DNA of 64,000 nt, from assembly GCA_022801925.1 (NCBI GenBank), contig JAAWTG010000003.1, positions 20,611 to 84,610 of the forward strand, read 5' to 3'. Positions 11,415-59,059 of this stretch are shown here, piece by piece; position 1 is the stretch's first letter, and the number at the start of each line of letters is the position of its first letter. Made by a program: the position numbers and the translations under genes. Below the pieces are notes generated by a model. It did no database searches, was not told the origin of the DNA, and worked only from the letters and a program-made list of their open reading frames with translations. This DNA comes from Clostridia bacterium. Lineage in GTDB: Bacteria; Bacillota; Clostridia; RUG12999.

Positions 11415-11423
11415 GGGATTTGT

Positions 11424-36436: not shown

Positions 36437-36478
36437 AAAAAGCCCTGATATCATATTTTATGTGATATCAGGGCTTTG
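36437..36478. terminator. Bidirectional rho-independent terminator between the SPFH gene and the convergent EAL gene
   Basis: Perfect 14-bp hairpin AAGCCCTGATATCA/TGATATCAGGGCTT with T-rich flanks on both strands. Confidence 0.8.
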
Positions 36479-36622
36479 GTATTTATATAGAAAGTCAATC
36501 GTTTAGATGAAACCAATCTATAAACGATATTCTCTCCCCAAAAGGCACACACGACTTTGAGGGGAGGCGTGTGCCTGAAAAACCTGTATGTACTGTTGAA
36601 GGTATTCTAAAAGAATATGCAG

Positions 36623-38527
36623 CTACTGCCTATGCTCTTTTAAAAATTTTTTCGCCTCCTTCAGCGGCAAAGCGCGGGAATAGTAAAATCCTTGAATGAG
36701 GTCGCAGTCGGTGCTTAGTACCATTTTATTATGTTCTTCCGTTTCGACACCCTCGCATAGAACGGTGATATTCATGCTGTGTGCCAAGCGAATAAGTCCG
36801 TCCAGCAACATTTTTCCGCGGCTGTCCATAGCGTTTAGAACAATGTCCCGTTCCACTTTCACGTAATCTATTGGATAATGATAGAGGTCAGATAGAGAGG
36901 AATAGCCGCTTCCGATATCATCCAAAGCGATTAGAAATCCAAGCGCCTTACATTTTTGCAGATTTTCCTGCAAAAGTTTCGGATTGTGTGACCGGGAATC
37001 TTCTGTAACCTCAATGATAAGGTGACTGTGGAGAAAAGCGTAACGTTCAGCAATTTCTTTGATATGGTTTGAAAAATCCGGTGCAGTAATGGAATAGCGG
37101 GTGAAATTACAGGATATAAACATATGACCCAAACCGTCCTGTTCCCATTTCGCCAGTTGTTTACATACCTGCGAAAAAATATAGTAATCGTGCGCTGTTA
37201 CAGCGCCGGTTTGGTTCATGAGTTCAATATATTTTGACGGCGGCAGCAATCCTTCTTGCGGATTTTGCCATCTGGATACCGCTTCTGCGCCGTATATTTC
37301 ACCTTTTCGGTTGACAATATATTGCAGATATAACTGAAATTCACCGTCCTTGATTGCCTGCGTGATACGGTGATGCAGGCGTTCATTCTGATGTGTTTCC
37401 GCGACGAGGGTTTGCGTGCTGAAAGAAAAGTTCAGTTTGTGACCCACTGCGTGGAGATATCCTTGTTTTGCGTTGTAGAAAGCGGATTCGCTGTCACAGT
37501 CCATGTTTTCTTCCAGCGCACAAACGCCGGCGGAAAAGAGATTCGTATATTCACTTTTGAATTGACTAAGATAGACGTCCAGTTCGTCCATGATACGCTT
37601 GATTCGTTCTTCTGCCTTTGGTTTATTGCTGCTTTGATAGAGAAAAGCAAACACGCCGGCATTTACCAATGCAAGATATTCTGCGGCGCCGGTTTTTTGA
37701 TTTAAAAATGCTGCCACATACTGCTGAACCGTTTGGGTTTCGCTTCCGCCGTACCGCCGGTTGAAGGTTTCTTCATCAAAGGAAATATAGGCAAGATAGT
37801 ATAGACTTTTGCTTTTATCGGAAATAAGATTGTCGTAGCAATAAATGTAATATTTATCATTTCCGATACCATATTGGGGATGTATCATCAGGTCGTCTTG
37901 CGCAGCTTTCCGCTTTCTCCCAAAATGGATTGCCAGCACCGTCGCTGTCAGCAAAACAACTGATAAAATACCACCTAAAACATATACAAACAATATATGG
38001 ATTCGGTTCACGCCGCCGTATTCCCTTGTATAGGACGAGAGAAACGTAAGTTTTTGTTCCGCAGATATCTCGGAAAACGCAGCGGAAACCTTTGATACGA
38101 TTTCTTCAGAGGCAATGTTAGAAAATGCAAAACAGACCCGCCGCTCTCTGCCGTCAATCGTAATGTTGGAAACGAACTGCGGCGTCTTTATATACTGCTC
38201 GTCAATCGCTTCCTCCAAATAGGCGGATATGATATCTGCCTGCCCGTTTTTTGCCAGACGCGCCTGTGCATGGGGACTGCTATCCTCCAAATACTGAAAA
38301 GTATAACCGGTTTTTTCAGAAATCACCGCATAAAGCTGCGGCATGAGACCGGCAAACTGTCCGCTCTTATCGTCATAATATTCTATCGGATACATATCGG
38401 TGTTTCCTGCCACATAAACGGTGGATTCTGAAGCAAACGAATGAACAGCAGCAAGAAACATAGAAAGCACGATAATACAGATATAGATACATATGGTTCT
38501 GACGAGCCCCATGTTACGGTTGTTCAT
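36623..38527 (-). CDS. Membrane-anchored sensor protein with a periplasmic domain, a degenerate GGDEF-like region and an EAL c-di-GMP phosphodiesterase domain
   Basis: C-terminal EAL motifs (LIALDDIGSGYSSL, DYVKVERDIV, QGFYYSRALP). Start chosen at MNNRNMG, which has a GGTGGA RBS. The longer ORF extension overlaps the upstream gene out of frame. Confidence 0.8.
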   Translation of the reverse strand: MNNRNMGLVRTICIYICIIVLSMFLAAVHSFASESTVYVAGNTDMYPIEYYDDKSGQFAGLMPQLYAVISEKTGYTFQYLEDSSPHAQARLAKNGQADIISAYLEEAIDEQYIKTPQFVSNITIDGRERRVCFAFSNIASEEIVSKVSAAFSEISAEQKLTFLSSYTREYGGVNRIHILFVYVLGGILSVVLLTATVLAIHFGRKRKAAQDDLMIHPQYGIGNDKYYIYCYDNLISDKSKSLYYLAYISFDEETFNRRYGGSETQTVQQYVAAFLNQKTGAAEYLALVNAGVFAFLYQSSNKPKAEERIKRIMDELDVYLSQFKSEYTNLFSAGVCALEENMDCDSESAFYNAKQGYLHAVGHKLNFSFSTQTLVAETHQNERLHHRITQAIKDGEFQLYLQYIVNRKGEIYGAEAVSRWQNPQEGLLPPSKYIELMNQTGAVTAHDYYIFSQVCKQLAKWEQDGLGHMFISCNFTRYSITAPDFSNHIKEIAERYAFLHSHLIIEVTEDSRSHNPKLLQENLQKCKALGFLIALDDIGSGYSSLSDLYHYPIDYVKVERDIVLNAMDSRGKMLLDGLIRLAHSMNITVLCEGVETEEHNKMVLSTDCDLIQGFYYSRALPLKEAKKFLKEHRQ

Positions 38528-39008
38528 TTTGACATCCACCCTTTTCAATCTTTTTTCGAGTGACCGGAGAAAAGTGTTGCGGTTCTGAAAGCACCTCACT
38601 TTTCTCAGACAAATTATCACCCAATATATCAAGTAATTGCTGAATGCTATCGCGTACATCATGGATACCGGCACTGCATTCACGGATTCGTTTTTGCAGT
38701 TCATGGGCGCATTCCAGATTTTTTTCCAGAAACTTTGCATTTTCAGCATTTGCTTTTTGCTTCAATTCTACTGCATACATTTTTGCATCGGTCAACACTT
38801 CCGCCACACGGTCGCGTTCTGCATAAAAAGCTGCGTTTTCCTGCTCAAGCCGTGCAATTTTTTTATTGAATTCCTGCACTGCCTGTTCGTGTGCTGTTAT
38901 GGTATCCATCATTTTCAGGGAAAATTTTTCGTTCATTTTTGCGATATATTCACATATATCGCTTTTTTTATATCCCCAAAATCCCTTTTTCAAACGTGTA
39001 ATATCCAT
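38514..39008 (-). CDS. DivIVA-domain coiled-coil protein (GpsB/DivIVA-like)
   Basis: N-terminal LKKGFWGYKKSDICEYIAKM matches the DivIVA N-terminal pattern (K.F..RGY...EV..FL..V), and the rest is coiled coil. RBS GGAAAGGAGA. Confidence 0.6.
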   Translation of the reverse strand: MDITRLKKGFWGYKKSDICEYIAKMNEKFSLKMMDTITAHEQAVQEFNKKIARLEQENAAFYAERDRVAEVLTDAKMYAVELKQKANAENAKFLEKNLECAHELQKRIRECSAGIHDVRDSIQQLLDILGDNLSEKSEVLSEPQHFSPVTRKKIEKGGCQNEQP

Positions 39009-39054
39009 AAAAATCTCCTTTCCGATTTTTCGGTATCATAGCCGGACACGCTTT

Positions 39055-40458
39055 TTAATGCAACTTGATTTTTTTGCGTTCAATACGACCCCATTGTGTT
39101 TTCTTTTTGCGATAGCCAATAAATGCGGTGGAGCGTACCCAAGCAAGGATAAACCGCAGACAGGTTAATTCAAAGAAACATAGTAAGACAGCCTTGACAC
39201 CGTCTATAAATGAAATTTTCATATCTGTTGTATAGAGGCGTGAGAAGAATGCCGAAAGCGAGAGGATGGAACTGAATCCGGCATATATCAGGAAAAACAG
39301 AATCATAAACGGAACATGCAATAAACCGGTTGCCCACGCCAAAAGCATAGTGATAACGCCAAATATTTCAATAAACGGTGAAAACAACTCATAAATCAAA
39401 AAGTATAAATAGGATATGAAACTGACTGCACCGAATTTGGGATTGGAAAACATTTTACGGTGCGCAAACATGCTTTGAAACAATCCCAAATGCCATCTTT
39501 TACGCTGGCGGCACAAATCACGCAAGTTTTCGGGTACTTGTGTCCAGCAGATGGCATCGCTGGCATATCGAATACTGTAGTTGATATGGTTCATGGTACA
39601 ATATTCATGCAACTTGACCACCAATTCCATATCCTCGCCGATTGTTTCATTGCTATAACCGCCCGCCGCTATGACTGTCTCTTTTTTGAACAGTCCGAAC
39701 GCACCGGAAATGATAAGAGAACCGTTGAATTTATCAAACAGAATTCTGGACGCCAAAAAAGAACGGGCATATTCTAAAACTTGCATACAAGCCAAGATAT
39801 TACGCGGCATACTATATTTTTTGAGCCGTCCGTTTTCCAGTTCGACTGCATTGGAAATGCGCACCATACCGCCGACGGCAACCACATTATCATTTTCCAG
39901 AACAGGTTGTGCAATGCGGCGCAGGGAGTCATATTGCAGAAAAGAATCGGCGTCAATACAAATAAAATACGGAAATGTGGAGGCATTAATACCCATATTC
40001 AGCGCGTCTGCTTTTCCGCCGTTTCGTTTACGAATGAGCGTCAGCGGTACCTTTTGCAAGCGGGACTCATAGACAAATTCTTCCGGCTGACAGGGAAGTT
40101 GCCGGCGTATCGGACAGTGAACGGGGCGCATGTCAAACGCTTCAATTAACTTTTTGGACATATTGTCTGTGGAACCGTCGTCTACTACAATAATCTCATA
40201 GGAGCGATATTCAAGCTGCAAAAGAGATTTGACGTTTTCCACCACAGTAATTTCTTCATTATAGGCAGGTACGATAATGGTAATCGGAACATAATAGTCC
40301 TGCGGGAGAATGTTTTTCATCAACTCACGCCGACGGAGTTTATACAGTTCAAGAGAGCCGACAACAAGCGAGATAAAAAGGAAGGTTGAATATCCAATGA
40401 GATAGGCGATAAAGAAATAGCCGGTCCAATCCAAGAATACTTTAAGCGTGTCTAACAT
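39055..40458 (-). CDS. Processive family-2 glycosyltransferase / polysaccharide synthase (PgaC/IcaA/NodC/HasA-like)
   Basis: N-terminal TM pair, DDGSTDN, DAD, QRKRW (QxxRW) motif, and 3-4 C-terminal TM helices. The start overlaps the upstream gene's stop (ATGTTAG). Confidence 0.85.
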   Translation of the reverse strand: MLDTLKVFLDWTGYFFIAYLIGYSTFLFISLVVGSLELYKLRRRELMKNILPQDYYVPITIIVPAYNEEITVVENVKSLLQLEYRSYEIIVVDDGSTDNMSKKLIEAFDMRPVHCPIRRQLPCQPEEFVYESRLQKVPLTLIRKRNGGKADALNMGINASTFPYFICIDADSFLQYDSLRRIAQPVLENDNVVAVGGMVRISNAVELENGRLKKYSMPRNILACMQVLEYARSFLASRILFDKFNGSLIISGAFGLFKKETVIAAGGYSNETIGEDMELVVKLHEYCTMNHINYSIRYASDAICWTQVPENLRDLCRQRKRWHLGLFQSMFAHRKMFSNPKFGAVSFISYLYFLIYELFSPFIEIFGVITMLLAWATGLLHVPFMILFFLIYAGFSSILSLSAFFSRLYTTDMKISFIDGVKAVLLCFFELTCLRFILAWVRSTAFIGYRKKKTQWGRIERKKIKLH

Positions 40459-41570
40459 ATGGATGCATCCTCCTTTTCTGCGCGTATCATATCACGAACA
40501 TCAAAATGGTACCGGAGAATTTCGGAGGCGTAGCGGTCATGTCCTTCCAAAACATCAATCAAATCCAGATAAGTCAATCCCAGCCGTTCAAGACTTTGCG
40601 CGGAATTGAACCGGATATGCCAGTTGCGGTGATGTAAATTTGATTTTAAAATTTCCACTGTTTTCTCTGCAGGGTAGGAAGCCAAAACAGAAGATGCTAT
40701 AGCGGCATATTCCCAGCGCATATCGGTTCTGCTGTTCGCATAAAGCAATAAATATTCATATGCCGGTTCATAGCGGTATTTACCGAAATAGCGAATACAG
40801 GCAAACCGGAGTTCATCGTCCTGCGATGTATCCTTCATAAGCCGCAGGATATCTTCGCAATGGTCTCCTGAGCTAAAGCGGAAATAGTTCAGCAGCGTGA
40901 TTTGCATCTTACGCGAGAAATCCTCAAATGTTTCCCAAAGTGCAGCGTTGAGTCGTTGCGTATTACCTGCGAAATTTAATAATCCATCCGCCAACAGTTT
41001 GCTATGATAGACTTTATTTTCATTGTCTATGATTTTTAATGCTTTTACAATGCAAGAAGCGTCTCTGGTAGTATAGAGCGCCTGCATAGCGTTTTCCCTG
41101 CAATAGATGCTCGGTTCATGGAGAAGCCGGAACAACATATCAATCATAGCGTCAAACGGACGGTCTGCCAAAATTCTATATTTTTTGATGATATATGGGA
41201 AATATGCCGCTTCCATAGAATCTTTTTTGCAATATTCGATAGAAAGAGATACAAACACACTGCCAATGGAATAGAGATATTTTCGGACAAGCATTGGATT
41301 TTCAAGATGTTTTTTTTCAAGCGCTGCATCAAAAGCACGCATGTTGCTGATGCGTTTGAGTTTTCCGGAAAGATAGTTTTTGTGTGCGCTGTGCACAGCA
41401 CTGTGCGTTTCCAGCCATATCAGTTCACTGCGGATCCTGTCCTCAAAACCATTGCTGACCCGAAGAATCCTTTTGTCCCTGCGGCGGGAGAGGAATGCAC
41501 TGATGATATTAAATAAAATCATGCCAACGCATATGACAAGATAGACATAAATCATTTTTTCTATGTTCAT
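40452..41570 (-). CDS. Hypothetical membrane-anchored alpha-helical repeat protein (HEAT/TPR-like), unknown function
   Basis: Single N-terminal TM helix followed by about 330 aa of predicted helical repeats. RBS GAAAGGG before MNIEKM. Translationally coupled to the GT2 gene. Confidence 0.5.
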   Translation of the reverse strand: MNIEKMIYVYLVICVGMILFNIISAFLSRRRDKRILRVSNGFEDRIRSELIWLETHSAVHSAHKNYLSGKLKRISNMRAFDAALEKKHLENPMLVRKYLYSIGSVFVSLSIEYCKKDSMEAAYFPYIIKKYRILADRPFDAMIDMLFRLLHEPSIYCRENAMQALYTTRDASCIVKALKIIDNENKVYHSKLLADGLLNFAGNTQRLNAALWETFEDFSRKMQITLLNYFRFSSGDHCEDILRLMKDTSQDDELRFACIRYFGKYRYEPAYEYLLLYANSRTDMRWEYAAIASSVLASYPAEKTVEILKSNLHHRNWHIRFNSAQSLERLGLTYLDLIDVLEGHDRYASEILRYHFDVRDMIRAEKEDASIC

Positions 41571-41593
41571 TGTGAGAACCCTTTCTTTTGGTG

Positions 41594-41660
41594 AGACAAA
41601 CAAAAGTCGAATCTCATGCGGTCACTGCATGGCGCAACCATATTCGACTTTCGTTTGCCT
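41594..41660 (-). repeat. Intra-operon hairpin / short repeat copy (AAAGTCGAAT...ATTCGACTTT followed by a T-rich run), between the glycoside-hydrolase and helical-repeat genes
   Basis: 10-bp stem with a nested CATGC..GCATG stem. On the minus strand it is followed by TTTTGTTTGTCTC. The 27-nt 3' half recurs at 47497-47525 and a variant at 6017-6037. Confidence 0.45.
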
Positions 41661-41672
41661 ATCCGCGTACTG

Positions 41673-43844
41673 CTATGACCATAATTGTTGCAGCATATAA
41701 TAGGAACTTTTCAGGCGTTCATGATAGCTTATCTGGTTGCCCCAGCCTTTCAGTTTGAAAGAGGAGAACGGTATCCGACCGCCGGAATTACCATCTGTCA
41801 GTGCGAAATACAGTTCATTGATTTTGATATAGTCTATACCGTAGTTGCCGCTGTAATAATCATCATGAATCATCATACGAGACGGATCGGAGAAATTCAA
41901 AAGCTGCCACGGCAGTTTCAGTTCAATATAGTCTCCACTGCAGATATAGTCGGCGAGAGAGTCAAACGCCGGACTAGACGGATTGGCGTTGCCATATTTG
42001 AGTTTTCCGGTCTCAAAGACCTCTGAGTTTGCCAAATTATCGTTATAGAGAAGTACCGTAGCGGTTTGCAGAATCATCTGAATCGGCAGGAAACGTGGCG
42101 AGTCAATATCAGGTATGTTGCTTGCGATATAAGTATCAAAATCATAAGCTTGCAGTGCATAGGTTGAACGCAGCGATTCATAACGTTCCTGCACCAAAAC
42201 ACGGCTGTTTTCTCTGCCGTGCAGCACAATTAAAAAATCTGCTGCACGGTCTAATAAAAGATTTTGTTCCTTGCAATAAAGGCTGCCGCTTTTGGGCGTG
42301 ATATCCAAAGGAATATAAAGCGTATCGGTTTCGAGGTTGAGGTTCGGTTTGTGAATCAGGAAATAGAGGAACCGCTCATCATATTTTACAGAAAGGGACA
42401 TGCCGCCGTTTTGGACGACCAAATCCGATTCTGTCCATTCAGAAATATCTCCGTCCACATAGCAAACAGATTTTTCGGCGCCAGGGTCAAAGGATAATAA
42501 GCCAAAATATTGCTCGTTGGTCTGATAGTCCGACCAATAGGGCGTTCTTGTCAAATCCACTGCATACATCGTATTCCAGGTGCGTTTGAACCATTCATCC
42601 TGCCACGAAAATACACAGCAGCCGGCACAACCTGCCGCCATAATATCCTCATAACAGTCGATAAGCGCTTGACCCTGTTCCTGTTCGGACATGTTGCCCT
42701 GATTTCTTCCGGTGTTTGCATCCCTTTGCGCCATTCCGCGTCCGGTGGAAACGCCGAACTCCGAAATAACCACGGGCATGGTATGATGGGTTGTGAGCAT
42801 GGCAAGATAGGCGCGGTAGGTGCTGAGTTGCCCTTTTGCATTGATATATGCCGATTTATCTGCGATTCCAAACGGTGACCAATCGTCAATATAGGTGAGG
42901 TAGTCGGGATAATAGGGATATACATGGTAGGAGGCAAATTGTCCGGCAAGAAATGTGTCATAGGTTTTAATATGTTCCGCATTCACATAGGCACATTTCA
43001 TAAAGAAATTTTTGATTCGTTCAGGATATTCAAAAGGATCAGTGGTCGGCCAGTTGGAAAAGGCAATGAGTTTTTGCGTTTTATAGCGGCAAGATTCATA
43101 TTCAACCACTTTGTCGCCGACTTTACAAAGCAGCGTTTCAAAGGGAGAGGCGTCCTGCGTGGTATACATATATTTCCCTTGATAAGAGGTATAACCGTCT
43201 TTGCCCGCGTAAAGATCGTCTGTATAAGCAACCGTAAGGTCTTCCCACTCCACGCCCAAAATATAACCGATGACCCAAGAAGAGACGTCTTTTAGATAAC
43301 TGCCGGAACCGGCGCTTGATACACTATTCAGCGCAATTTTTTTATTGCCGTGTACGGCATCCAGCATAGTTTTGCAATCATTTAAAAAAGTATCATAAAA
43401 TTCCTTACTATAGGCATCGCGGTGGGAATTTTGTATGTAGTCGTTGACCCATACGCCGTGAATCAAATAGAGTGGGTCAGGATTGTTTTTATTATATTCG
43501 TAAAACGCCTTGTAAAAAACGTCCTGTTGAATGGTATAGATACGAATCGTGTTGGCGCCCATTTCTTTGATATATTGAAACCAGCGAAGATAGGTTTCTT
43601 TGTCGATTGCAAAATCGGTAGACCATGCGCCCGGCGCGCCGGAGCCAAGATTCACACCACGAATCTCAAAGGGTTCATACCCGTTTCCCTTGTCCATATA
43701 TATTTTATCGCCATCTGTTTTGACAAAGGTGGTAACTGCTTTGGCAGGCTGAAAATCAATATACCATCCGAGCCGGAAATAAATGGCGTCATAGACCAGA
43801 GCCAATGCTACAACAGATGACAAAATGATTAAAAACTTTTTCAT
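41673..43844 (-). CDS. Secreted glycoside hydrolase-like protein (TIM-barrel clan GH-A type, candidate exopolysaccharide hydrolase)
   Basis: Signal/anchor sequence, GVNLG...IKEMGANTIRIY, and a candidate nucleophile motif VVISEFG. 723 aa. Confidence 0.5.
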   Translation of the reverse strand: MKKFLIILSSVVALALVYDAIYFRLGWYIDFQPAKAVTTFVKTDGDKIYMDKGNGYEPFEIRGVNLGSGAPGAWSTDFAIDKETYLRWFQYIKEMGANTIRIYTIQQDVFYKAFYEYNKNNPDPLYLIHGVWVNDYIQNSHRDAYSKEFYDTFLNDCKTMLDAVHGNKKIALNSVSSAGSGSYLKDVSSWVIGYILGVEWEDLTVAYTDDLYAGKDGYTSYQGKYMYTTQDASPFETLLCKVGDKVVEYESCRYKTQKLIAFSNWPTTDPFEYPERIKNFFMKCAYVNAEHIKTYDTFLAGQFASYHVYPYYPDYLTYIDDWSPFGIADKSAYINAKGQLSTYRAYLAMLTTHHTMPVVISEFGVSTGRGMAQRDANTGRNQGNMSEQEQGQALIDCYEDIMAAGCAGCCVFSWQDEWFKRTWNTMYAVDLTRTPYWSDYQTNEQYFGLLSFDPGAEKSVCYVDGDISEWTESDLVVQNGGMSLSVKYDERFLYFLIHKPNLNLETDTLYIPLDITPKSGSLYCKEQNLLLDRAADFLIVLHGRENSRVLVQERYESLRSTYALQAYDFDTYIASNIPDIDSPRFLPIQMILQTATVLLYNDNLANSEVFETGKLKYGNANPSSPAFDSLADYICSGDYIELKLPWQLLNFSDPSRMMIHDDYYSGNYGIDYIKINELYFALTDGNSGGRIPFSSFKLKGWGNQISYHERLKSSYYMLQQLWS

Positions 43845-43865
43845 GAATCCTCCTAATGAAACTAC

Positions 43866-45341
43866 TTAGTTTGCGTTTTCGTTAAACTTTTTCACCTTTG
43901 ACCCAGCGGAATATTGCGTGATAGATTCTATGTTTTCATCCAGCCAGGAGCCTCTATACGAAATAAACCACTTGAGCTGCGCAAGACTTTCTTCATAGGA
44001 ACGTGGATTGCGTTCGATAGGTTTTAGCAAATCATGACTTTCTTCAAAGGAATACCCCCATTTTTCATAGTTTCGCGCTATCGCGGCACCTAAATACTCT
44101 ACAGTGCTGTCAATATAACGGCAAAGATAGTCCTCGCTGAGATAGGTTTGACGAAGTTCATGATAACGCTTGACACAACGTTTTGTAAAGTTTTCATCTT
44201 TTGTCAGCATAAAGTACCACAAACAATTTTGAAGTTCAAAATGTCCGGGCTGCATCATAGATTGCTGATAGTTGTCACAGGCAGAGTTAAAATCCCAAAT
44301 ACACATGCGGAACTTGCCGTCGATATCTTTATACATATAAGTGGATAACCAGCCGGCGTCGTAGTTACAGGTAAACTCATTTATGAGAAGATAGTCTACA
44401 AAAGAATCTACATCAATCAATTTTTCATACCCATATTGGTTATTGTCGTAATCATAGGAATAGAGTGATTTTTCAAAAGCGGAAAAATCTTGTTTGATTC
44501 CTTCCAATATTTTGGGCGTTAGATTGGGAGCGCCGGGATATACAATTTCCAATTTCAGATTTGTGCGGAGCGTATAGGTGGTAAAACTTTTCAGATGGTT
44601 CTGTTCCTCGTTGTCCGGACGGTCAAGTAACAATACATAGCCGGTAAAGGTATTATCTTTTGCATCGACAGTCAGATTTAGGCGACTTCCGTTTTTGCCT
44701 GCCGTAATGTTTTCAACCAATACATAAACGCCCATATATTCACCATCAAGGAGCAATTCACAAAAGCGTACATTGGGAGCGTAGTCCATAATCTCGCCGG
44801 CAATATTATACCACATATAATTACGAAGCAGTGTCTTGTCCAAAATCGGACCGTGCAGCACCCATTCATGATGGGCGGTCATTCCGATTAGACTTTGTGG
44901 ATTGTTTCCTCCTTTTTCATCAATCAGATTGATGCGATAGCCCAATTTATCATAGGTACGCGAGGAATTGCCGCGTACATGAATGGATATATCGCTGGTA
45001 ACAGCAGGAACATCAGTGGGATGGTTGTTGGTTGTTTTATTATCAAACACCGACAGCTTGGCACGGATTCGGTCGCTACCGTCAGCCGCGGTTGTATATC
45101 CGGTCGTTTTACCTTCTTCCACGATTGCCCTTCCGGGTATTTCCACACCGCCTGTATGAATGGTTATCAACGGTAAATGTGTGCAGAAGGTATTGTCCGT
45201 ATGGGGGCATGGTTGTTTCGGCTCTGCCTCCAAATGTTGATGATAGCGTCCGGTATCCGCAGTCAATAAAAGAGGCAAATTTATCGCAGAAATGAGCAGC
45301 ATGAGTGCACAGGCAATGATACCCCAAACTTTGTATTTCAT
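43866..45341 (-). CDS. CotH-family protein (atypical kinase fold), secreted or membrane-anchored
   Basis: N-terminal hydrophobic segment. 491 aa with CotH-like conserved blocks (RGNSSRTYDKLGYRINL, HEWVLHGP, YVLVENI). Sits in a CotH-DUF4956-VTC context. Confidence 0.6.
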   Translation of the reverse strand: MKYKVWGIIACALMLLISAINLPLLLTADTGRYHQHLEAEPKQPCPHTDNTFCTHLPLITIHTGGVEIPGRAIVEEGKTTGYTTAADGSDRIRAKLSVFDNKTTNNHPTDVPAVTSDISIHVRGNSSRTYDKLGYRINLIDEKGGNNPQSLIGMTAHHEWVLHGPILDKTLLRNYMWYNIAGEIMDYAPNVRFCELLLDGEYMGVYVLVENITAGKNGSRLNLTVDAKDNTFTGYVLLLDRPDNEEQNHLKSFTTYTLRTNLKLEIVYPGAPNLTPKILEGIKQDFSAFEKSLYSYDYDNNQYGYEKLIDVDSFVDYLLINEFTCNYDAGWLSTYMYKDIDGKFRMCIWDFNSACDNYQQSMMQPGHFELQNCLWYFMLTKDENFTKRCVKRYHELRQTYLSEDYLCRYIDSTVEYLGAAIARNYEKWGYSFEESHDLLKPIERNPRSYEESLAQLKWFISYRGSWLDENIESITQYSAGSKVKKFNENAN

Positions 45342-45375
45342 CTATTTACCTCCTGCATTGTTTTTTGAACATGGT

Positions 45376-46053
45376 TTAATTTGACACTTCATCGTTTTGC
45401 ATGACGATGTTTACATATTCGACATTTCCAAGCGCGTAGATACCGGCGGTGATATCGGGCGTTTGTTTTTCCGCTTTTTGCAGCATTTTTTGTGTTAGTT
45501 CGTAGATAAGTTCCACGGTGTCTTCTGTCGTGTTTTCCACGCGGAGAACCGCCTTTGTATGGAATATCTTATAGATTTGCGCTTTAATAGGCGCCTGTTT
45601 ACTACGCGCGGCACGCACGATAAGCAGCATTCTATGGTCGTTTTTAATGAAGCCAAGTACTAGAATCACAAAAAAGGTAACTGCACTTCCAATACCTGCC
45701 ACAAGATAATCGCCTACACCACAGCAGATACCGACAATGATAGTCCAAAAAATGTATACCGTATCCCGCGAATCTTTAATAGCAGTACGGAACCGGACAA
45801 TGGACAGCGCGCCAACCATTCCGAGCGACAATGCAATATTGTTGCCGATGACTGTCATAACAGTGCTTGTCAGCACTGTTAGAATCGTGAGAGAAGCATT
45901 AAATTTTTTACTATAGATAGTGCCGCGGTGAGATATGTAGTAGGAAATGAAGATAAACAATCCAAGTGCCGCCGCCGTCGCAATATTCATTAGAATTTGT
46001 TCAGCAGTCATGTCGCTGGGATTGGTAAATAGGTTATATATTTTTTCTTTCAT
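45376..46053 (-). CDS. DUF4956-family membrane protein
   Basis: Four TM helices followed by a soluble C-terminal domain. Typical genomic partner of VTC-domain and CotH proteins. Confidence 0.6.
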   Translation of the reverse strand: MKEKIYNLFTNPSDMTAEQILMNIATAAALGLFIFISYYISHRGTIYSKKFNASLTILTVLTSTVMTVIGNNIALSLGMVGALSIVRFRTAIKDSRDTVYIFWTIIVGICCGVGDYLVAGIGSAVTFFVILVLGFIKNDHRMLLIVRAARSKQAPIKAQIYKIFHTKAVLRVENTTEDTVELIYELTQKMLQKAEKQTPDITAGIYALGNVEYVNIVMQNDEVSN

Positions 46054-46067
46054 ATATTGATAACTCC

Positions 46068-46775
46068 TTATAATCTCGTTTGATACCCATTTTGGCGGGC
46101 AAGCACATATTTACTGACAGATAATTCGCTACGGTTCACGCTGTTTATCATACGGCGGATATAATCGAGCAGAAAGCCGTTGAATTTCACTTCCATAACC
46201 ACGTTAAATTTGTCCAGCACCGGATTCATATTAAGATATGGCGCAAACAAATCAAAATTGCTTTCCGTAGCCACAATATTGCTGTCAAAAGTAATACGGA
46301 TTTTATTCTCCTTTGCAATGAATGCTTTGCGGTGATATTGTACGATTGTTTTAGGACGGTAACAGCGAGTATTCATGAGCGCATAACATTCGGCTGCAAA
46401 GCGCTCTTTGTAATGCAGAAGAGGGGAATAATCGCCTTTGGTAAGCGCTATGGCTTCTTCACGCGATATCTGCAAAGAACGCTTAAGTTGATACGCACCT
46501 TGTTTTTGTTTCATCTCAAGCATAGCAAAATGAGAATTTGAGTCATAAATACGCAGCCTGATTTTGCGCCTTGTTTCTATGCCGGAAATCTTTTCAAAAT
46601 AGTCTCTGTCATATATTGTATCAAAATATAGTGAGCGAATCACATATCCATGCGTTCCATTATGTATATCTTCTGACATTACTTGGCTTAACATGTGGCT
46701 CTTTTCGAGAAATTCATCAACGTTTATTAAGAACTTTTTTTCTTCTCTGAAAACTTTGTTCAATCCTACCATCAT
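46068..46775 (-). CDS. VTC-domain protein (polyphosphate-polymerase-like triphosphate tunnel fold)
   Basis: SLYFDT motif and about 235 aa, matching bacterial VTC-domain proteins. First gene after the riboswitch leader. The RBS AGAAGG abuts ATGATG, so the exact start is uncertain. Confidence 0.6.
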   Translation of the reverse strand: MMVGLNKVFREEKKFLINVDEFLEKSHMLSQVMSEDIHNGTHGYVIRSLYFDTIYDRDYFEKISGIETRRKIRLRIYDSNSHFAMLEMKQKQGAYQLKRSLQISREEAIALTKGDYSPLLHYKERFAAECYALMNTRCYRPKTIVQYHRKAFIAKENKIRITFDSNIVATESNFDLFAPYLNMNPVLDKFNVVMEVKFNGFLLDYIRRMINSVNRSELSVSKYVLARQNGYQTRL

Positions 46776-46781
46776 CCTTCT

Positions 46782-46822
46782 AAAAACAAAAAAACTGACT
46801 GCAATTTAAACTTGCAGTCAGT
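46782..46822 (-). terminator. Intrinsic terminator forming the expression platform of the leader riboswitch
   Basis: Perfect 11-bp stem ACTGACTGCAA/TTGCAGTCAGT with a 7-nt loop, followed by TTTTTTTGTTTTT, ending 6 nt before the RBS. Confidence 0.8.
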
Positions 46823-46829
46823 CAATCAT

Positions 46830-46898
46830 TCGAATTTATTCGGTTAGACACTTAACTTTGCGTCCCCGCTTTTCAACAGGTTTGCCTAATATTCATTT
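46830..46898 (-). promoter_or_regulatory. Candidate c-di-GMP-I (GEMM) riboswitch aptamer
   Basis: Minus strand reads ...TTAGGCAAACC TGTTGAAAAGCG GGGACGCAAAG TTAAGTGTCTAACC... This reproduces the GEMM-I conserved blocks GGCAAACC, a 12-nt hairpin with a GAAA tetraloop, and GGGACGCAAAG, with the same 12-nt spacing as the Vibrio cholerae Vc2 aptamer. Confidence 0.55.
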
Positions 46899-46904
46899 CT
46901 TAAA

Positions 46905-46933
46905 ATTGTACTATATTTAATGGGAGTTGTCAA
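46905..46933 (-). promoter_or_regulatory. Sigma-A promoter TTGACA-17-TACAAT driving the riboswitch leader and the VTC-to-EAL operon
   Basis: Consensus -35, a 17-nt spacer and a near-consensus -10 read on the minus strand. Confidence 0.65.
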
Positions 46934-47040
46934 CCATTATTTTCAATTTACTGCCTTTGATAGAAAATATTTATGATTCTTTTCTTTGTAGAGTATAGTG
47001 TTGTATAGTCCGCAGAGAGGAAAATAAAAATGAACTGCGA

Positions 47041-47093: not shown

Positions 47094-47170
<77 letters not shown>

Positions 47171-47176
47171 ATATAT

Positions 47177-47265
47177 TGGTGCCGGAAACCGGAATCGAAC
47201 CGGTACGGGAGTTTCCTCCCACAGGATTTTAAGTCCTGGGCGTCTGCCAGTTCCGCCATTCCGGC
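47177..47265 (-). tRNA. tRNA-Leu (UAA)
   Basis: 89 nt with a long variable arm, anticodon loop CTTAAAA, a GTTCGATTC T-loop, and an encoded CCA end. Confidence 0.85.
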
Positions 47266-47418: not shown

Positions 47419-47458
47419 TTCTACTCTCCAAAAGGCATAGATGCCTTTTGGAGAGTAG
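47419..47458. repeat. Perfect 18-bp inverted repeat CTACTCTCCAAAAGGCAT-AG-ATGCCTTTTGGAGAGTAG
   Basis: Read directly. No adjacent U-run on either strand, so it is not an obvious terminator. Confidence 0.5.
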
Positions 47459-47496
47459 GAATCGGAAAAAGTTTTGTATAGCATATATCTAGGTTA

Positions 47497-47680
47497 GACA
47501 AACAAAAGTCGAATCTCATGCGGCCTCCCAGAAGCAGATTTTTCCGTATGCTGTGCTAGAAATACCCCACATACACTAGTATTTCTGCGTATTTTTTCCT
47601 TGCCTACAGAAAATTTGCACCTAGAGACTTCATAGAACCGTGCAGGAGAAAATTTTTTGTAAGGCAAGGAAAAGCCTTTT
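47497..47680. repeat. Copy B of the short intergenic repeat family. It includes an internal 15-bp inverted repeat TTTTCCTTGCCTACA / TGTAAGGCAAGGAAAA.
   Basis: Shares GACAAACAAAAGTCGAATCTCATGCGG with 41594-41622, and shares CCGTGCAG..AAATTTTTTGTAA / TTGTAAGGCAAGGAAAAG with 6046-6170. Confidence 0.4.
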
Positions 47681-49489: not shown

Positions 49490-49529
49490 ACAGTAAGAAA
49501 ACAGATATAAAAAGGCAGGAGTCAAAGGT

Positions 49530-50477
49530 ATGAAACAAGCAATTTCATTTGGGCAAGCAGTGCCGCGGCAGAAAAAGCCGCGGCTGCTGCGGGAATTAGC
49601 AAAAAATAAATATATCTATATCATGCTGGTTCCGTTTCTATTATTTTATATTATCTTCATGTATGGACCGATGTATGGTGCAATGATTGCATTTAAAGAT
49701 TTCACGCCAAAACTGGGTATTTTAGGCAGTCCATGGGTGGGAATAAAGCACTTTGAGGCTTTTTTTGGCAGCATTTATTTTTGGCGTTTGCTGCGAAACA
49801 CCATTTCCATTAGTTTGCAAACGCTGGTATTTGGATTTCCGGCGCCTATTATTCTGGCGTTGCTGCTAAATGAGGTGCGGCAGGCGTGGTTTAAGAAAAC
49901 AGTGCAAACCATATCCTATATGCCGCATTTTATTTCGCTGGTAGTTGTCTGCGGAATCATTAAAATTTTCACGGGCAGCGAAGGTATTATCAACGATTTC
50001 ATGGTGCAATTCGGACAAGAACGGCGTGATTTGCTTTTGGATCCGGCGCTGTTTCAACCCATCTATGTCATATCGGATATTTGGCAGAAAATTGGCTGGG
50101 AATCCATTATTTACTTGGCGGCGCTTTCCGGCGTAGACCAAGAACTATATGAGGCGGCGCGTATTGACGGCGCAGGGAAATGGCGGCAACTGCTGAGCGT
50201 GACGCTGCCGTGCATTTTACCAACCATTGTTGTTATGCTGATTTTGCGTGTTGGTTCTATGATGAACATTGGATTTGAAAAAATCATTTTGTTATATAAC
50301 GGTAATACCTATGAGACCGCGGATGTTATTTCCAGTTATGTGTACCGCAAAGGAATACAGGAATTTTCTTATAGCTTTAGTACGGCGGTGGGATTGTTTA
50401 ATTCAGTCATTAACTTCTTTTTGGTACTGAGCGCAAACACTATCAGCAAAAAAGTAAACGATACAAGTTTGTGGTAA
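49530..50477 (+). CDS. Sugar ABC transporter permease (LplB-like)
   Basis: Six TM helices and an EAA motif region, with an N-terminal extension typical of LplB. Confidence 0.85.
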   Translation: MKQAISFGQAVPRQKKPRLLRELAKNKYIYIMLVPFLLFYIIFMYGPMYGAMIAFKDFTPKLGILGSPWVGIKHFEAFFGSIYFWRLLRNTISISLQTLVFGFPAPIILALLLNEVRQAWFKKTVQTISYMPHFISLVVVCGIIKIFTGSEGIINDFMVQFGQERRDLLLDPALFQPIYVISDIWQKIGWESIIYLAALSGVDQELYEAARIDGAGKWRQLLSVTLPCILPTIVVMLILRVGSMMNIGFEKIILLYNGNTYETADVISSYVYRKGIQEFSYSFSTAVGLFNSVINFFLVLSANTISKKVNDTSLW

Positions 50478-50489
50478 GGGGGAGAAACG

Positions 50490-51368: not shown

Positions 51369-51400
51369 CAAAAAGCTACATATAAAGGGAGGGTATCTTT

Positions 51401-54046: not shown

Positions 54047-54066
54047 TAAAAGGGAGGATACGGCAA

Positions 54067-59046: not shown

Positions 59047-59059
59047 GGGAGGCGAAACC

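What the first reader, a model, noticed from the sequence alone, without database searches (positions are those of the whole stretch)
36623..46935. Riboswitch-gated 8-gene operon: VTC-DUF4956-CotH-glycosidase-helical repeat protein-GT2 synthase-DivIVA-EAL. Candidate undescribed c-di-GMP-controlled exopolymer system with an autoregulatory phosphodiesterase.
Eight minus-strand genes are packed with gaps of 5-47 nt, several translationally coupled (a 5-nt overlap between the helical-repeat and GT2 genes, and a 14-nt overlap between the DivIVA and EAL genes). They are bounded by the riboswitch leader upstream and a bidirectional terminator downstream. The products combine a processive GT2 polysaccharide synthase (QxxRW) and a secreted TIM-barrel glycosidase, the usual synthase-plus-hydrolase pairing of exopolysaccharide machines. 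Added to these are a CotH-type atypical kinase, a VTC polyphosphate-polymerase-like domain protein, a DUF4956 membrane protein, a DivIVA-domain protein, and an EAL phosphodiesterase with a periplasmic sensor. Because the last gene degrades the ligand that the leader riboswitch apparently senses, the operon would form a self-limiting feedback loop. I cannot match this gene set to pel, psl, pga/ica, bcs or eps systems.
Basis: inference. Interest (0 to 1): 0.9.

Follow-up and report, generated by a model that had tools for sequence, protein, structure and literature searches.

The report
Riboswitch-gated exopolysaccharide operon with phospho-module
An eight-gene operon in an uncultured gut Clostridia bacterium is predicted to be switched on by the second messenger c-di-GMP through an RNA switch, and it most likely builds and modifies a surface sugar polymer; the same uncharacterised gene set is conserved in hundreds of gut Firmicute species.

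Summary
Eight co-directional minus-strand genes (46775-36623) sit between a c-di-GMP-I riboswitch (Rfam, 71 bits) and terminators. The riboswitch carries its own promoter and an overlapping terminator. The products are:
- a VTC/TTM polyphosphate-polymerase-like protein
- a DUF4956 membrane protein
- a surface-anchored CotH kinase
- a TM-HEAT protein
- a processive GT2 synthase (D, DxD, GED, QRKRW)
- a borderline DivIVA-like coiled coil
- a sensor, degenerate-GGDEF, intact-EAL phosphodiesterase

The gene order is conserved in at least 80 species-level genomes, and at least 548 encode the 723-aa protein. The riboswitch with a competing terminator (an ON design) occurs in 36 of 65 loci. The EAL gene occurs in about 42 of 49. 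Some relatives without a riboswitch carry a diguanylate cyclase gene upstream instead. About 12 relatives have a CE4 deacetylase inside the operon, which points to an N-acetylated polymer.

The cluster is not wholly undescribed. The six-gene core matches C. perfringens NELoc-2 (2010, mis-annotated and never characterised). The VTC-DUF4956-CotH trio is a known accessory of Gram-positive Pel loci.

Verdict: a real, widespread, uncharacterised variant of synthase-dependent exopolysaccharide (EPS) systems. The feedback loop is plausible but untested.

The parts
46905..46933 (-). Sigma-70-type promoter, TTGACA-17-TACAAT, about 8 nt upstream of the aptamer
   Evidence: 11 of 12 consensus matches, the best site in the 12-kb scan. 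This is a consensus match only and was not tested.
46810..46896 (-). c-di-GMP-I (GEMM-I) riboswitch aptamer
   Evidence: RF01051, 71.1 bits (gathering score 35), E 6e-12, full model 1-87. There is a G at the unpaired model position 11, which I take from memory of the Vc2 structure to be the G20 ligand contact. Homologous aptamers sit in front of the same operon in 36 of 65 related loci.
46783..46823 (-). Expression platform: a 12-bp terminator hairpin (46793-46823) plus a U tract. Its 5' arm is the 3' strand of aptamer helix P2.
   Evidence: the terminator fold is -36.7 kcal/mol and the aptamer fold -18.8 kcal/mol. The same arrangement is found in 33 of 37 related leaders.
46068..46775 (-). 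Gene 1: soluble VTC/TTM polyphosphate-polymerase-like protein. The start lies somewhere in 46763-46775.
   Evidence: Pfam VTC, E 1.8e-42. The orthologue profile hits the yeast Vtc4 catalytic domain 3g3q at E 1e-3. K14, R73/R75 and K89/K91 are invariant.
45376..46053 (-). Gene 2: DUF4956 membrane protein (4-5 TM segments plus a cytoplasmic C-terminal domain)
   Evidence: Pfam DUF4956, E 4.7e-13, with a weak MgtC hit. Topology. It is always adjacent to the VTC gene in relatives, or separated from it only by an inserted CE4 gene.
43866..45341 (-). Gene 3: CotH-family atypical kinase with an N-terminal membrane anchor; the bulk is extracytoplasmic
   Evidence: Pfam CotH, E 6.9e-56, full length. 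The profile hits B. cereus CotH 5jd9 at 2.6e-6. D328, D350 and N352 are invariant. Topology.
41673..43844 (-). Gene 4 ('X'): membrane-anchored extracytoplasmic protein with a clan GH-A (beta/alpha)8 barrel closest to GH157 endo-beta-1,3-glucanase, followed by C-terminal beta-rich domains
41594..41660 (-). Intra-operon 19-bp hairpin in the 102-nt gap between genes 4 and 5, with no U tract after it. It may be a processing or stability element or a partial attenuator.
   Evidence: -34.2 kcal/mol, z -3.1. Its 3' arm recurs exactly at 47496-47523. It is lineage-specific: relatives have gaps of 5-40 nt here.
40452..41570 (-). Gene 5: single-TM protein with a cytoplasmic HEAT-repeat domain (the ORF extends to a TTG at 41603)
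   Evidence: HEAT_2, E 4.6e-10. Topology. X-HEAT fusion proteins exist (P0267, P0305, P0299).
39055..40458 (-). Gene 6: processive family-2 glycosyltransferase (synthase) with flanking TM helices
   Evidence: GT2 Pfam hits. The closest NCBIfam model is PgaC_IcaA at 147 bits (cutoff 422). D93/D94, D169xD171, G274-E-D and Q317RKRW are at least 97% conserved in 70 orthologues. BcsA and chitin synthase hits in the PDB.
38514..39008 (-). Gene 7: soluble coiled-coil protein with a DivIVA-like N-terminal motif. It is present in only about half of related loci.
   Evidence: conserved motif LKxGFxGYxKxxVxxYI. DivIVA is the top Pfam hit in orthologues, just below the cutoff.
36623..38527 (-). Gene 8: TM, extracytoplasmic SBP_bac_3-like sensor, TM, degenerate GGDEF, catalytically intact EAL phosphodiesterase
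   Evidence: EAL, E 4.2e-57. Catalytic E415, R419, N474, E506, E509, D536, D537, K557, E592, E595 and Q612 are present here and in 47-55 of 55 orthologues. The GGDEF motif is degenerate everywhere. Topology.
36439..36576 (-). 3' boundary: a hairpin with a U-run (36543-36576) and a 15-18-bp bidirectional terminator (36439-36477)

Best explanation
This is a single transcription unit for a synthase-dependent extracellular polysaccharide machine. It belongs to an uncultured gut Clostridia bacterium and is gated by c-di-GMP at two levels.

1. Transcription. A constitutive-looking promoter drives a c-di-GMP-I aptamer. The 3' strand of its P2 helix is also the 5' arm of an intrinsic terminator. Without ligand the terminator forms and the operon is off. 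With c-di-GMP bound the aptamer holds that strand and RNA polymerase reads through. This is an ON switch, inferred from structure.

2. Synthase core (genes 4-6). The membrane GT2 polymerises and exports a beta-linked glycan. It most likely contains N-acetyl-hexosamine, because the closest family model is PgaC/IcaA and relatives carry CE4 deacetylases in the operon or fused to X. The TM-HEAT protein is its cytoplasmic partner. The surface-anchored GH157/GH72-like protein X trims, remodels or transglycosylates the polymer outside the membrane.

3. Phospho-module (genes 1-3). This comprises a cytoplasmic TTM/VTC polyphosphate-polymerase-like enzyme, its DUF4956 membrane partner and an extracytoplasmic CotH kinase. 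It modifies the polymer or its machinery by phosphorylation. This step is an inference. Genetics in Streptococcus intermedius show that the homologous DUF4956 and CotH genes are needed for full Pel output.

4. Signal shut-off. The last gene encodes a membrane sensor phosphodiesterase. It hydrolyses c-di-GMP and so limits induction, both through the leader and probably locally at the synthase. Its activity is presumably tuned by a ligand of its SBP-like outer domain.
For: Riboswitch:
- Identity and position.
- Promoter and overlapping terminator.
- The same aptamer-terminator overlap in 33 of 37 related leaders.
- Aptamer directly upstream of the VTC gene in 36 of 65 loci.

Operon layout:
- Tight spacing or overlaps between genes, and no strong internal terminator.
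- Gene order VTC-DUF4956-CotH-X-HEAT-GT2-(coiled coil)-EAL conserved across 80 species-level loci of several Clostridia families.

Synthase core:
- GT2 processive-synthase motifs are conserved. The nearest families are PgaC/IcaA, BcsA and chitin synthase.
- X is a GH-A barrel with both candidate catalytic Glu invariant in this clade.
- X-HEAT and X-CE4 fusion proteins exist.
- A CE4 deacetylase gene lies inside the operon in 10 loci, plus L004 and L039.
- The X-HEAT-GT2 core occurs alone in Deinococcus, and behind a c-di-GMP-I-like aptamer in Paenibacillus.

Phospho-module:
- VTC catalytic Lys and Arg residues are invariant and align to Vtc4.
- CotH has invariant Asp residues 22 apart, against 23 apart for the B. 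subtilis catalytic D228/D251.
- Topology places CotH and X outside the membrane and VTC and HEAT inside.
- S. intermedius mutants in the homologous DUF4956 and CotH genes lose Pel output and aggregation.

Phosphodiesterase and other c-di-GMP links:
- The EAL active site is intact and the GGDEF is degenerate.
- The EAL gene is present in about 42 of 49 evaluable loci.
- Relatives without a riboswitch have GGDEF cyclase, GGDEF-HD-GYP or GGDEF-EAL genes directly upstream.
Against: - There are no expression, biochemical or genetic data for this locus. All functions are inferred from sequence and from comparison.
- The polymer is unknown. The window's own operon has no deacetylase, and X resembles beta-1,3-glucan-active families, so a beta-glucan cannot be excluded.
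- The GT2 scores far below the PgaC/IcaA equivalog cutoff.
- In the wider X family the candidate nucleophile E362 is mostly Gly or Ser (29 of 136 keep Glu). Hydrolysis may therefore not be the family's ancestral role.
- An extracytoplasmic kinase has no obvious ATP supply.
- The 102-nt gap between genes 4 and 5, with its strong hairpin, could uncouple expression of the two halves.
- The EAL gene persists in about 15 loci without a riboswitch, so feedback through the leader is not general.
- No c-di-GMP receptor for post-translational control was identified: there is no PilZ domain and no I-site.
Confidence: 0.65

Rival explanations
1. The locus is simply a divergent PNAG (pga/ica-type) system. 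The GT2 makes poly-beta-1,6-GlcNAc, X substitutes for the PgaB or dispersin-type hydrolase, and the remaining genes are accessory.
For: The best NCBIfam hit of the GT2 is PgaC_IcaA, E 5.6e-43. CE4 deacetylases lie inside about 12 related operons, and one is fused to X. The NCBIfam hits of gene 8 include HmsP, the phosphodiesterase that regulates the Yersinia PNAG-type Hms system (the HmsP role is from my own knowledge).
Against: The GT2 scores 147 bits against an equivalog cutoff of 422. None of the eight products is a PgaB/IcaB, PgaD/IcaD or PgaA homologue. The window operon has no deacetylase. X resembles GH157 and GH72 (beta-1,3-glucan-active), not GH153 or GH20.
Confidence: 0.15
2. Gene 8 is not mainly a feedback enzyme. 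It acts as a local c-di-GMP gatekeeper or sensor that controls the synthase complex post-translationally, in the manner of HmsP or trigger phosphodiesterases. The riboswitch is an independent, dispensable layer.
For: The EAL gene is retained in about 15 loci that lack the riboswitch. In some of these a cyclase gene sits upstream, as expected for a local source-sink pair. About 6 of 55 orthologues have substitutions at catalytic positions (E506Q, E509Q, DD to AG). The gene overlaps its upstream neighbour, which suggests translational coupling and fixed stoichiometry.
Against: No c-di-GMP-binding partner (PilZ, I-site, MshEN) is detectable in the operon. In the window copy the catalytic residues are intact, so bulk hydrolysis, and hence feedback on the leader, is also expected. 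The two roles are not mutually exclusive.
Confidence: 0.3
3. The VTC-DUF4956-CotH trio phosphorylates proteins, or serves polyphosphate and phosphate homeostasis. It is only co-regulated with the glycan synthase and does not act on the polymer.
For: The only characterised CotH enzymes are Ser/Thr protein kinases of the spore coat. DUF4956 shows weak MgtC similarity, and the S. intermedius authors propose a role in phosphate metabolism.
Against: The trio is found fused into two unrelated EPS systems, Pel and X-HEAT-GT2, always in the same operon. This argues for a role in exopolysaccharide production itself. The DUF4956 and CotH mutants lower Pel output.
Confidence: 0.2
4. The genes are neighbours but not one functional unit. 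The hairpin between genes 4 and 5 and possible internal promoters split them into independent units, so the riboswitch controls only genes 1-4.
For: There is a 102-nt gap with a -34 kcal/mol hairpin. Several promoter-like hexamer pairs lie inside the region. In C. perfringens RNA-seq only the first two NELoc-2 genes were called differentially expressed.
Against: The hairpin has no U tract and is absent from other lineages, which have gaps of 5-40 nt here. The number of promoter-like matches (34) is not above the shuffled expectation of 29.5 +/- 4.9. Gene order is conserved across families, and X-HEAT fusions exist.
Confidence: 0.07

Closest known systems
Clostridium perfringens NELoc-2 (Lepp et al. 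2010, PMC2879425)
   Same: The order and sizes match: VTC (232 aa), membrane protein (226), CotH (497), hypothetical (685), HEAT (377), GT2 (466). The window has 235, 225, 491, 723, 372-383 and 467 aa.
   Different: - NELoc-2 has a duplicated VTC-membrane pair around a resolvase and an upstream sigma factor.
- No EAL gene or riboswitch was reported for it.
- The membrane protein was annotated 'tubulin/FtsZ' and the GT2 'chitin synthase'.
- None of the 9 later papers I could search reports functional work.
- Homology was judged from annotation, order and size only. I did not have the sequences.
cotH/polyP-polymerase/DUF4956/DUF4832 accessory genes of Gram-positive pelDEADAFG loci (Whitfield 2020, PMC7112168; S. 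intermedius SIR_1591-1594, PMC12345266)
   Same: Both have the same VTC-DUF4956-CotH trio next to a secreted TIM-barrel glycoside hydrolase, in one operon with a synthase-dependent EPS machine. In bifidobacteria the hydrolase is replaced by a DGC/PDE gene.
   Different: - The synthase here is a GT2 with a HEAT partner, not PelF (GT4), PelG, PelD or PelE.
- X is a 723-aa GH157-like protein, not a DUF4832 protein.
- The 2025 paper states the trio was not found outside Pel loci. Here it lies outside Pel in 80 Clostridia loci, a Planococcus plasmid and Streptococcus halotolerans.
PNAG systems (pgaABCD / icaADBC / hmsHFRS with HmsP)
   Same: Both have a processive membrane GT2 of the PgaC/IcaA type. 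Relatives carry a CE4 deacetylase. A membrane EAL phosphodiesterase is associated with the system.
   Different: The GT2 scores below the equivalog threshold. There is no PgaB/IcaB, PgaD/IcaD or PgaA. The system has different accessory proteins, and control is through a riboswitch.
Yeast VTC complex (Vtc4 TTM polyphosphate polymerase coupled to a membrane channel)
   Same: The TTM/VTC catalytic domain has conserved Lys and Arg tunnel residues. It is obligatorily paired with a membrane protein.
   Different: The bacterial protein is a stand-alone 235-aa domain. DUF4956 shows no detected relation to the Vtc1 transmembrane domains. Polyphosphate synthesis or export has not been shown for any bacterial member.
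c-di-GMP riboswitch-controlled surface and biofilm loci of Clostridia (for example the C. difficile class I and II riboswitch regulon)
   Same: A GEMM-I aptamer with a transcription-terminator platform controls envelope or adhesion genes in a Firmicute.
   Different: This operon is not, to my knowledge, among the described targets. Three literature searches combining CotH, VTC or NELoc-2 with riboswitch or c-di-GMP found nothing relevant.
GH157 endo-beta-1,3-glucanase (LaGH157, PDB 9fz9) and GH72 glucanosyltransferases
   Different: Identity is 19%. X has a membrane anchor and roughly 260 extra C-terminal residues. It sits in a biosynthetic operon, not a catabolic one. The nucleophile is lost in most of the wider family.

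Membership tests
c-di-GMP-I riboswitch (Rfam RF01051) | Covariance-model score at or above the gathering threshold over the full aptamer | tested here: met
   71.1 bits against 35, model positions 1-87 of 87.
c-di-GMP-I riboswitch (Rfam RF01051) | Ligand-contact nucleotides of the c-di-GMP type (G20 and C92 equivalents, not the A20 cGAMP variant) | tested here: met
   There is a G at unpaired model position 11 and a conserved UGC after P2. The mapping to Vc2 numbering is from my own knowledge.
c-di-GMP-I riboswitch (Rfam RF01051) | An expression platform that couples the aptamer to gene expression | tested here: met
   The terminator shares 11-18 nt with the aptamer's 3' strand, here and in 33 of 37 relatives. 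Ligand response is not testable in silico.
Processive GT2 beta-glycan synthases (BcsA, PgaC, chitin synthase or NodC type) | D, DxD, (T/G)ED and QxxRW motifs within a cytoplasmic GT-A domain flanked by TM helices | tested here: met
   D93/D94, D169-A-D171, G274-E-D and Q317-R-K-R-W are at least 97% conserved. TM segments at 15-33 and 351-441.
PNAG system (pga/ica) | PgaC/IcaA equivalog score | tested here: not met
   TIGR03937: 147.4 bits against a cutoff of 422.3.
PNAG system (pga/ica) | PgaB/IcaB CE4 deacetylase and a PgaD/IcaD partner in the operon | tested here: not met
   None of the eight products hits these families. A CE4 gene is present in about 12 related operons but not in this one.
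Pel system | PelF (GT4), PelG, PelD, PelE, PelA | tested here: not met
   None of the eight products has a GT4, PelG, PelD or PelA-type hit in Pfam or NCBIfam.
Bacterial cellulose synthase (bcs) | PilZ domain on the synthase, and a BcsB partner | tested here: not met
   The BcsA match is limited to the catalytic core, E 1e-6. CelA scores 39.6 bits against a cutoff of 699. There is no PilZ or BcsB hit.
CotH kinase family (PF08757) | Full-length domain match above the gathering score | tested here: met
   190.5 bits against 23.8, profile positions 1-322 of 322.
CotH kinase family (PF08757) | Catalytic Asp residues equivalent to B. subtilis D228 and D251 | tested here: inconclusive
   D328 and D350 are invariant and 22 residues apart. 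The reference residues are 23 apart. No residue-level alignment to B. subtilis CotH could be made.
VTC / TTM polyphosphate polymerase | VTC domain match and conserved tunnel Lys and Arg residues | tested here: met
   PF09359, 146 bits. K14, R73, R75, K89 and K91 are invariant. They align to the RQTTKY and HRLRWY segments of Vtc4 3g3q. The equivalence to K200, R264 and R266 is from my own knowledge. Activity is not testable here.
DivIVA (PF05103) | Domain score above the gathering threshold | tested here: inconclusive
   The window copy scores 13.1 bits (E 0.095). Orthologues score 21-27.6 bits against a cutoff of 28, with DivIVA as the top hit in four of four tested.
EAL c-di-GMP phosphodiesterase | EAL domain with the metal-binding and catalytic residues (E..R, N, ExxE, DD, K, E..E, Q) | tested here: met
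   193.7 bits. All the listed residues are present in the window copy, and each is present in 47-55 of 55 orthologues.
GGDEF diguanylate cyclase | GG(D/E)EF active site | tested here: not met
   The motif is NAGVF in the window and SDGGF-like in orthologues. The domain scores 22.5 bits, below the cutoff of 23.8.
Clan GH-A retaining glycosidases (GH157, GH72, GH2, GH5) | (beta/alpha)8 barrel with an acid/base Glu on beta-4 and a nucleophile Glu on beta-7 | tested here: met
C. perfringens NELoc-2 cluster | Sequence-level orthology of the six core genes | not testable with these tools
   Only published annotations, gene order and protein lengths could be compared.

The most novel reading that the evidence does not exclude
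The VTC-DUF4956-CotH trio is an extracytoplasmic phosphorylation device. The TTM enzyme makes polyphosphate at the inner face of the membrane. DUF4956 threads it outwards, as the yeast VTC channel does into the vacuole. The surface-anchored CotH kinase then uses polyphosphate in place of ATP as the phosphoryl donor. Its target is the nascent glycan or a matrix or wall component. The result would be an anionic, c-di-GMP-gated exopolymer in Gram-positive gut anaerobes. The module would be portable and plug into unrelated synthases (Pel, or X-HEAT-GT2).
Probability: 0.15. Interest if true: 0.85.

Novelty: new variant of a known kind. Interest (0 to 1): 0.62.

Why it matters
- Synthase-dependent exopolysaccharide systems are few (cellulose, PNAG, Pel, alginate and some others), and almost nothing is known about matrix polymers of the dominant gut Clostridia.
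- This gene set occurs in at least 548 species-level genomes. Its signature protein forms about 600 clusters at 50% identity, yet every copy seen here that carried a name is annotated 'hypothetical' or mislabelled.
- It gives a concrete, ligand-defined handle (a c-di-GMP ON riboswitch) on when commensal Oscillospiraceae, Lachnospiraceae and Ruminococcaceae switch to a sessile or aggregated state.
- It links the unexplained C. perfringens necrotic-enteritis locus NELoc-2 to an exopolysaccharide function.
- The CotH/polyP-polymerase/DUF4956 trio, previously thought to be Pel-specific, appears here as a portable module. This makes the open question of what an extracellular CotH kinase and a bacterial VTC enzyme do directly testable.

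Tried and rejected
1. A first AF2 model of X from 16 close homologues was unusable (pLDDT 50). It was replaced after a second homologue search seeded with the Planococcus orthologue.
2. Single-sequence PDB searches with CotH and VTC found nothing. Profiles were needed.
3. I looked for a second known riboswitch in the relatives that lack the aptamer. Rfam found none in L026, L053 or L063. Their upstream regions are heterogeneous, and no shared motif was pursued.
4. I looked for an I-site (RxxD) in the degenerate GGDEF domain as a possible c-di-GMP receptor. It is not conserved.
5. A spore-coat function was considered and rejected. The cluster occurs in the non-sporulating genera Planococcus and Streptococcus, and the CotH is membrane-anchored facing outwards.
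6. Membership of Pel, bcs or pga/ica was considered and rejected (see the membership tests).
7. My first automatic terminator call (12 of 37) was an artefact of scoring global MFE folds. A local hairpin search gave 33 of 37.
8. The PNAS 2016 CotH paper and the Science 2008 riboswitch paper could not be retrieved.
9. A search for PDB code 9FZ9 in the literature returned only irrelevant hits.

Full report
**Observation**

The region 36623-46935 holds eight minus-strand ORFs.
- gene 1: VTC, E 1.8e-42
- gene 2: DUF4956, E 4.7e-13
- gene 3: CotH, E 6.9e-56
- gene 5: HEAT_2, E 4.6e-10
- gene 6: several GT2 families, E 1e-24 to 1e-19
- gene 8: EAL, E 4.2e-57, with a sub-threshold GGDEF hit and a weak SBP_bac_3 hit

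Gene 4 (723 aa) had only a sub-threshold GH72 hit. Gene 7 had no significant hit.

Rfam finds a full-length c-di-GMP-I aptamer at 46810-46896(-), 71.1 bits against a gathering score of 35. The two tRNA genes upstream have their own terminator, so the operon needs its own promoter. The best promoter-like site in the region, TTGACA-17-TACAAT at 46933-46905, sits just before the aptamer.

Downstream of the EAL stop there is a hairpin with a U-run (36543-36576) and the bidirectional terminator 36439-36477.

The junctions are 14, 34, 21, 102 (69 with the TTG start), -7, 46 and -14 nt. One is the gap between genes 4 and 5. The other is the HEAT/GT2 overlap, which is 7 nt, not 5.

**The switch**

The 3' strand of aptamer helix P2 (GACUGACUGCA) is also the 5' arm of a 12-bp hairpin followed by UUUUUUUGUUUUU. 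The terminator fold is -36.7 kcal/mol. The best fold that keeps the Rfam aptamer pairs is -18.8 kcal/mol. The default state is therefore termination, and ligand capture of the shared strand during transcription would give read-through, which makes this an ON switch.

I built a covariance model from four aptamers. It found the aptamer directly upstream of the VTC gene in 36 of 65 related loci whose upstream DNA is available, and in two more at contig ends. In 33 of 37 of these, a hairpin of -12 kcal/mol or better, followed by a U tract, starts 11-34 nt inside the aptamer match. The remaining four show weaker versions by eye.

The unpaired G at model position 11 corresponds, from my memory of the Vc2 structure, to G20. 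That residue specifies c-di-GMP rather than cGAMP.

**Conservation**

The 723-aa protein has at least 4474 homologues, all unnamed. Its family forms 601 clusters at 50% identity with E at most 1e-30.

The closest relative of the window is an uncultured Clostridia MAG at 97% identity.

I ran tblastn with the eight window proteins on the best 80 loci. The order VTC-DUF4956-CotH-X-HEAT-GT2-(coiled coil)-EAL is kept across records labelled Oscillospiraceae, Ruminococcaceae, Lachnospiraceae, Acutalibacteraceae and others. This rules out a chance juxtaposition.

The EAL gene follows the GT2 gene, or the coiled-coil gene, in about 42 of 49 evaluable loci. That is 27 of 28 loci with a riboswitch and 15 of 21 without one (corrected by hand for overlapping starts and for L039).

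Several loci without a riboswitch have a c-di-GMP gene directly upstream on the same strand:
- a GGDEF cyclase in L020 and L047
- a GAF-GGDEF-HD-GYP protein in L052
- a GGDEF-EAL protein in L080; L026 has a tblastn match to the window EAL protein upstream, and I did not check its domains

The link to c-di-GMP is thus maintained by different means in different lineages.

**Two modules**

A Planococcus maritimus plasmid carries the six-gene core. NCBI annotates it as polyphosphate polymerase domain protein, DUF4956, CotH kinase family, hypothetical, HEAT repeat and glycosyltransferase. It has no EAL gene.

Streptococcus halotolerans has VTC-DUF4956-CotH-X-(45 aa)-GT2.

Deinococcus radiophilus has only X-HEAT-GT2. 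Paenibacillus cellulosilyticus has a c-di-GMP-I-like aptamer hit (31.9 bits) upstream of X-X'-HEAT-GT2.

So X-HEAT-GT2 is a self-standing synthase core and VTC-DUF4956-CotH is a separable module. The same trio, with a different TIM-barrel hydrolase (DUF4832), is contiguous with pelDEADAFG in streptococci and clostridia. In S. intermedius, mutants of the DUF4956 and CotH genes lose Pel output and aggregation. The authors of that paper state that the trio was not found outside Pel loci. The loci above show that it is.

**The synthase core**

The GT2 has the D, DxD, GED and QRKRW motifs of processive beta-glycan synthases, all at least 97% conserved. TM helices flank the catalytic domain. Its nearest curated family is PgaC/IcaA, but far below the equivalog cutoff (147 against 422 bits). 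In the PDB it matches the BcsA and chitin synthase cores.

With a 136-sequence alignment, X folds with pLDDT 94.4 and pTM 0.93. Its best structural neighbours are:

A profile alignment puts window E362 (ISEFG) on the LaGH157 nucleophile E224 (TTEFG). Entry 9g4n is the E224A mutant. E199 and E362 are invariant in 80 of 80 gut Clostridia orthologues. E362 is Gly or Ser in most of the wider family.

Three representatives are X-HEAT fusions. This fits a topology with X outside, one TM helix, and HEAT inside, and it argues that the two proteins act together.

One representative, at 53% identity, is an X-CE4 fusion. A CE4 polysaccharide deacetylase gene lies inside the operon in 10 of the 80 loci, and also in L004 and L039. 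In L039 it is the first gene after the riboswitch.

By analogy with PgaB, IcaB and PelA, this points to a polymer containing N-acetyl-hexosamine. The window's own operon has no deacetylase. The beta-1,3-glucanase-like fold of X also keeps a beta-glucan possible.

**The phospho-module**

The VTC profile aligns to the catalytic domain of yeast Vtc4 (E 1e-3). Invariant K14, R73/R75 and K89/K91 fall on the segments that I recall as K200, R264/R266 and the following Lys.

CotH is a full-length family member. Its invariant D328 and D350 are 22 residues apart. The B. subtilis residues whose mutation inactivates the kinase, D228 and D251, are 23 apart.

CotH is anchored with its bulk outside the membrane. 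VTC is soluble. DUF4956 has 4-5 TM segments plus a cytoplasmic tail.

What the module does is not known. No paper I could search characterises DUF4956.

**The last two genes**

Gene 7 is a coiled coil with a conserved N-terminal motif, LKxGFxGYxKxxVxxYI. DivIVA is the top Pfam hit in four of four orthologues tested, but just under the threshold, and only E 0.095 in the window copy. The gene is absent from many loci.

Gene 8 has two TM helices around an SBP_bac_3-like outer domain, then a degenerate GGDEF domain with no GGDEF motif and no conserved I-site. Its EAL domain has all the catalytic residues, each conserved in 47-55 of 55 orthologues. It should therefore be an active phosphodiesterase with no cyclase activity.

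It persists in loci without a riboswitch, and in some of those it is paired with an upstream cyclase. That suggests it also, or mainly, acts locally on the machine.

**Comparison with the literature**

The C. perfringens necrotic-enteritis locus NELoc-2 lists VTC (232 aa), 'tubulin/FtsZ' membrane protein (226), CotH (497), hypothetical (685), HEAT (377) and 'chitin synthase' GT2 (466) in this order. This matches the window's six-gene core in annotation, order and size. I could not compare the sequences.

Nine later papers mention NELoc-2. The abstracts and passages I read report no functional work. RNA-seq found the first two genes down-regulated in vivo.

Literature searches combining CotH, VTC domain or NELoc-2 with riboswitch or c-di-GMP returned nothing on this operon.

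**Verdict**

The locus is a new variant of a known kind, a synthase-dependent exopolysaccharide system under c-di-GMP control. Its synthase core (X-HEAT-GT2) is distinctive and widely conserved, and it carries a portable, unexplained phospho-module. Interest is 0.62.

The most novel reading still open is that polyphosphate is exported and used by the outward-facing CotH kinase as the phosphoryl donor (probability about 0.15).

Noticed in passing
window 41594-41621 (-) and 47496-47523 (-): An exact 28-nt repeat, CCGCATGAGATTCGACTTTTGTTTGTCT (0 expected by chance). One copy is the 3' arm of the hairpin between genes 4 and 5. The other lies about 230 nt upstream of the tRNA pair and has no matching 5' arm. 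It is present, with two substitutions, in the 97% relative L001 and absent from other lineages.
   Followed up: partly
window 36534-36546 (-), 47424-47436 (-), 47443-47455 (+): The motif GCCTTTTGGRGAG occurs three times (0.1 expected). It forms part of the hairpin after the EAL gene and of a near-perfect palindrome upstream of the tRNA genes. It may be a short repeated terminator or REP-like element.
   Followed up: no
L020:2055-3713, L047:5517-6959, L052:4580-6769, L080:5613-7055: In relatives without the riboswitch, the gene directly upstream of the VTC gene on the same strand encodes a GGDEF cyclase, a GAF-GGDEF-HD-GYP protein or a GGDEF-EAL protein. The RNA switch appears to be exchanged for dedicated c-di-GMP enzymes. 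L026 also has a tblastn match to the window EAL protein upstream at 4961-6064, whose domains I did not check.
   Followed up: partly
L025:5999-7795, L016:5227-6642; also L002, L004, L020, L023, L029, L039, L043, L048, L057, L071: A CE4 polysaccharide deacetylase gene (with SLH domains in L025) is inserted in the operon at different positions: between VTC and DUF4956, between DUF4956 and CotH, or as the first gene after the riboswitch in L039.
   Followed up: partly
proteins P0267, P0305, P0299 (X-HEAT); P0242 (X-CE4); P0272, P0324, P0343, P0365 (350-400 aa N-terminal extension with no Pfam hit): There are natural fusions of the 723-aa protein with the HEAT partner or with a deacetylase. A further group has an uncharacterised N-terminal extension.
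   Followed up: partly
L071:1664-1761 (-) and 1902-1996 (+): Two c-di-GMP-I aptamers lie back to back on opposite strands. One faces the operon and the other faces a divergent gene.
   Followed up: no
L084 (Streptococcus halotolerans CP014835.1) 6149-12740: The cluster VTC-DUF4956-CotH-X-(45 aa)-GT2 has no HEAT protein, no EAL gene and, as far as I checked, no riboswitch, in a genus generally held to lack c-di-GMP signalling. It shows that the trio occurs outside Pel loci in streptococci.
   Followed up: partly
window 47097-47265 (-); L053:5840-6929: Two tRNA genes lie immediately upstream of the operon leader. In Zongyangia hominis a tRNA array occupies the same position upstream of the orthologous operon.
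   Followed up: no
window 47903-62923 (+): Divergent from the operon lie a sugar ABC transporter (SBP_bac_8 plus two permeases) and three large SLH-domain surface proteins. One has heparinase II/III-like lyase and CBM96 domains, which suggests a cell-surface glycan-degrading locus.
   Followed up: partly
window 12456-13151 (+): This is the only CE4 deacetylase-like sequence in the window (29% identity to the in-operon CE4 of L016). It lies about 24 kb from the operon, and its context was not examined.
   Followed up: no
window 46763-46775 (-): The start of gene 1 is ambiguous among ATG 46775, ATG 46772 and TTG 46763. The orthologue consensus MNxVLRQEKKYL favours the TTG. In L001 the first ATG is TTG.
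   Followed up: partly
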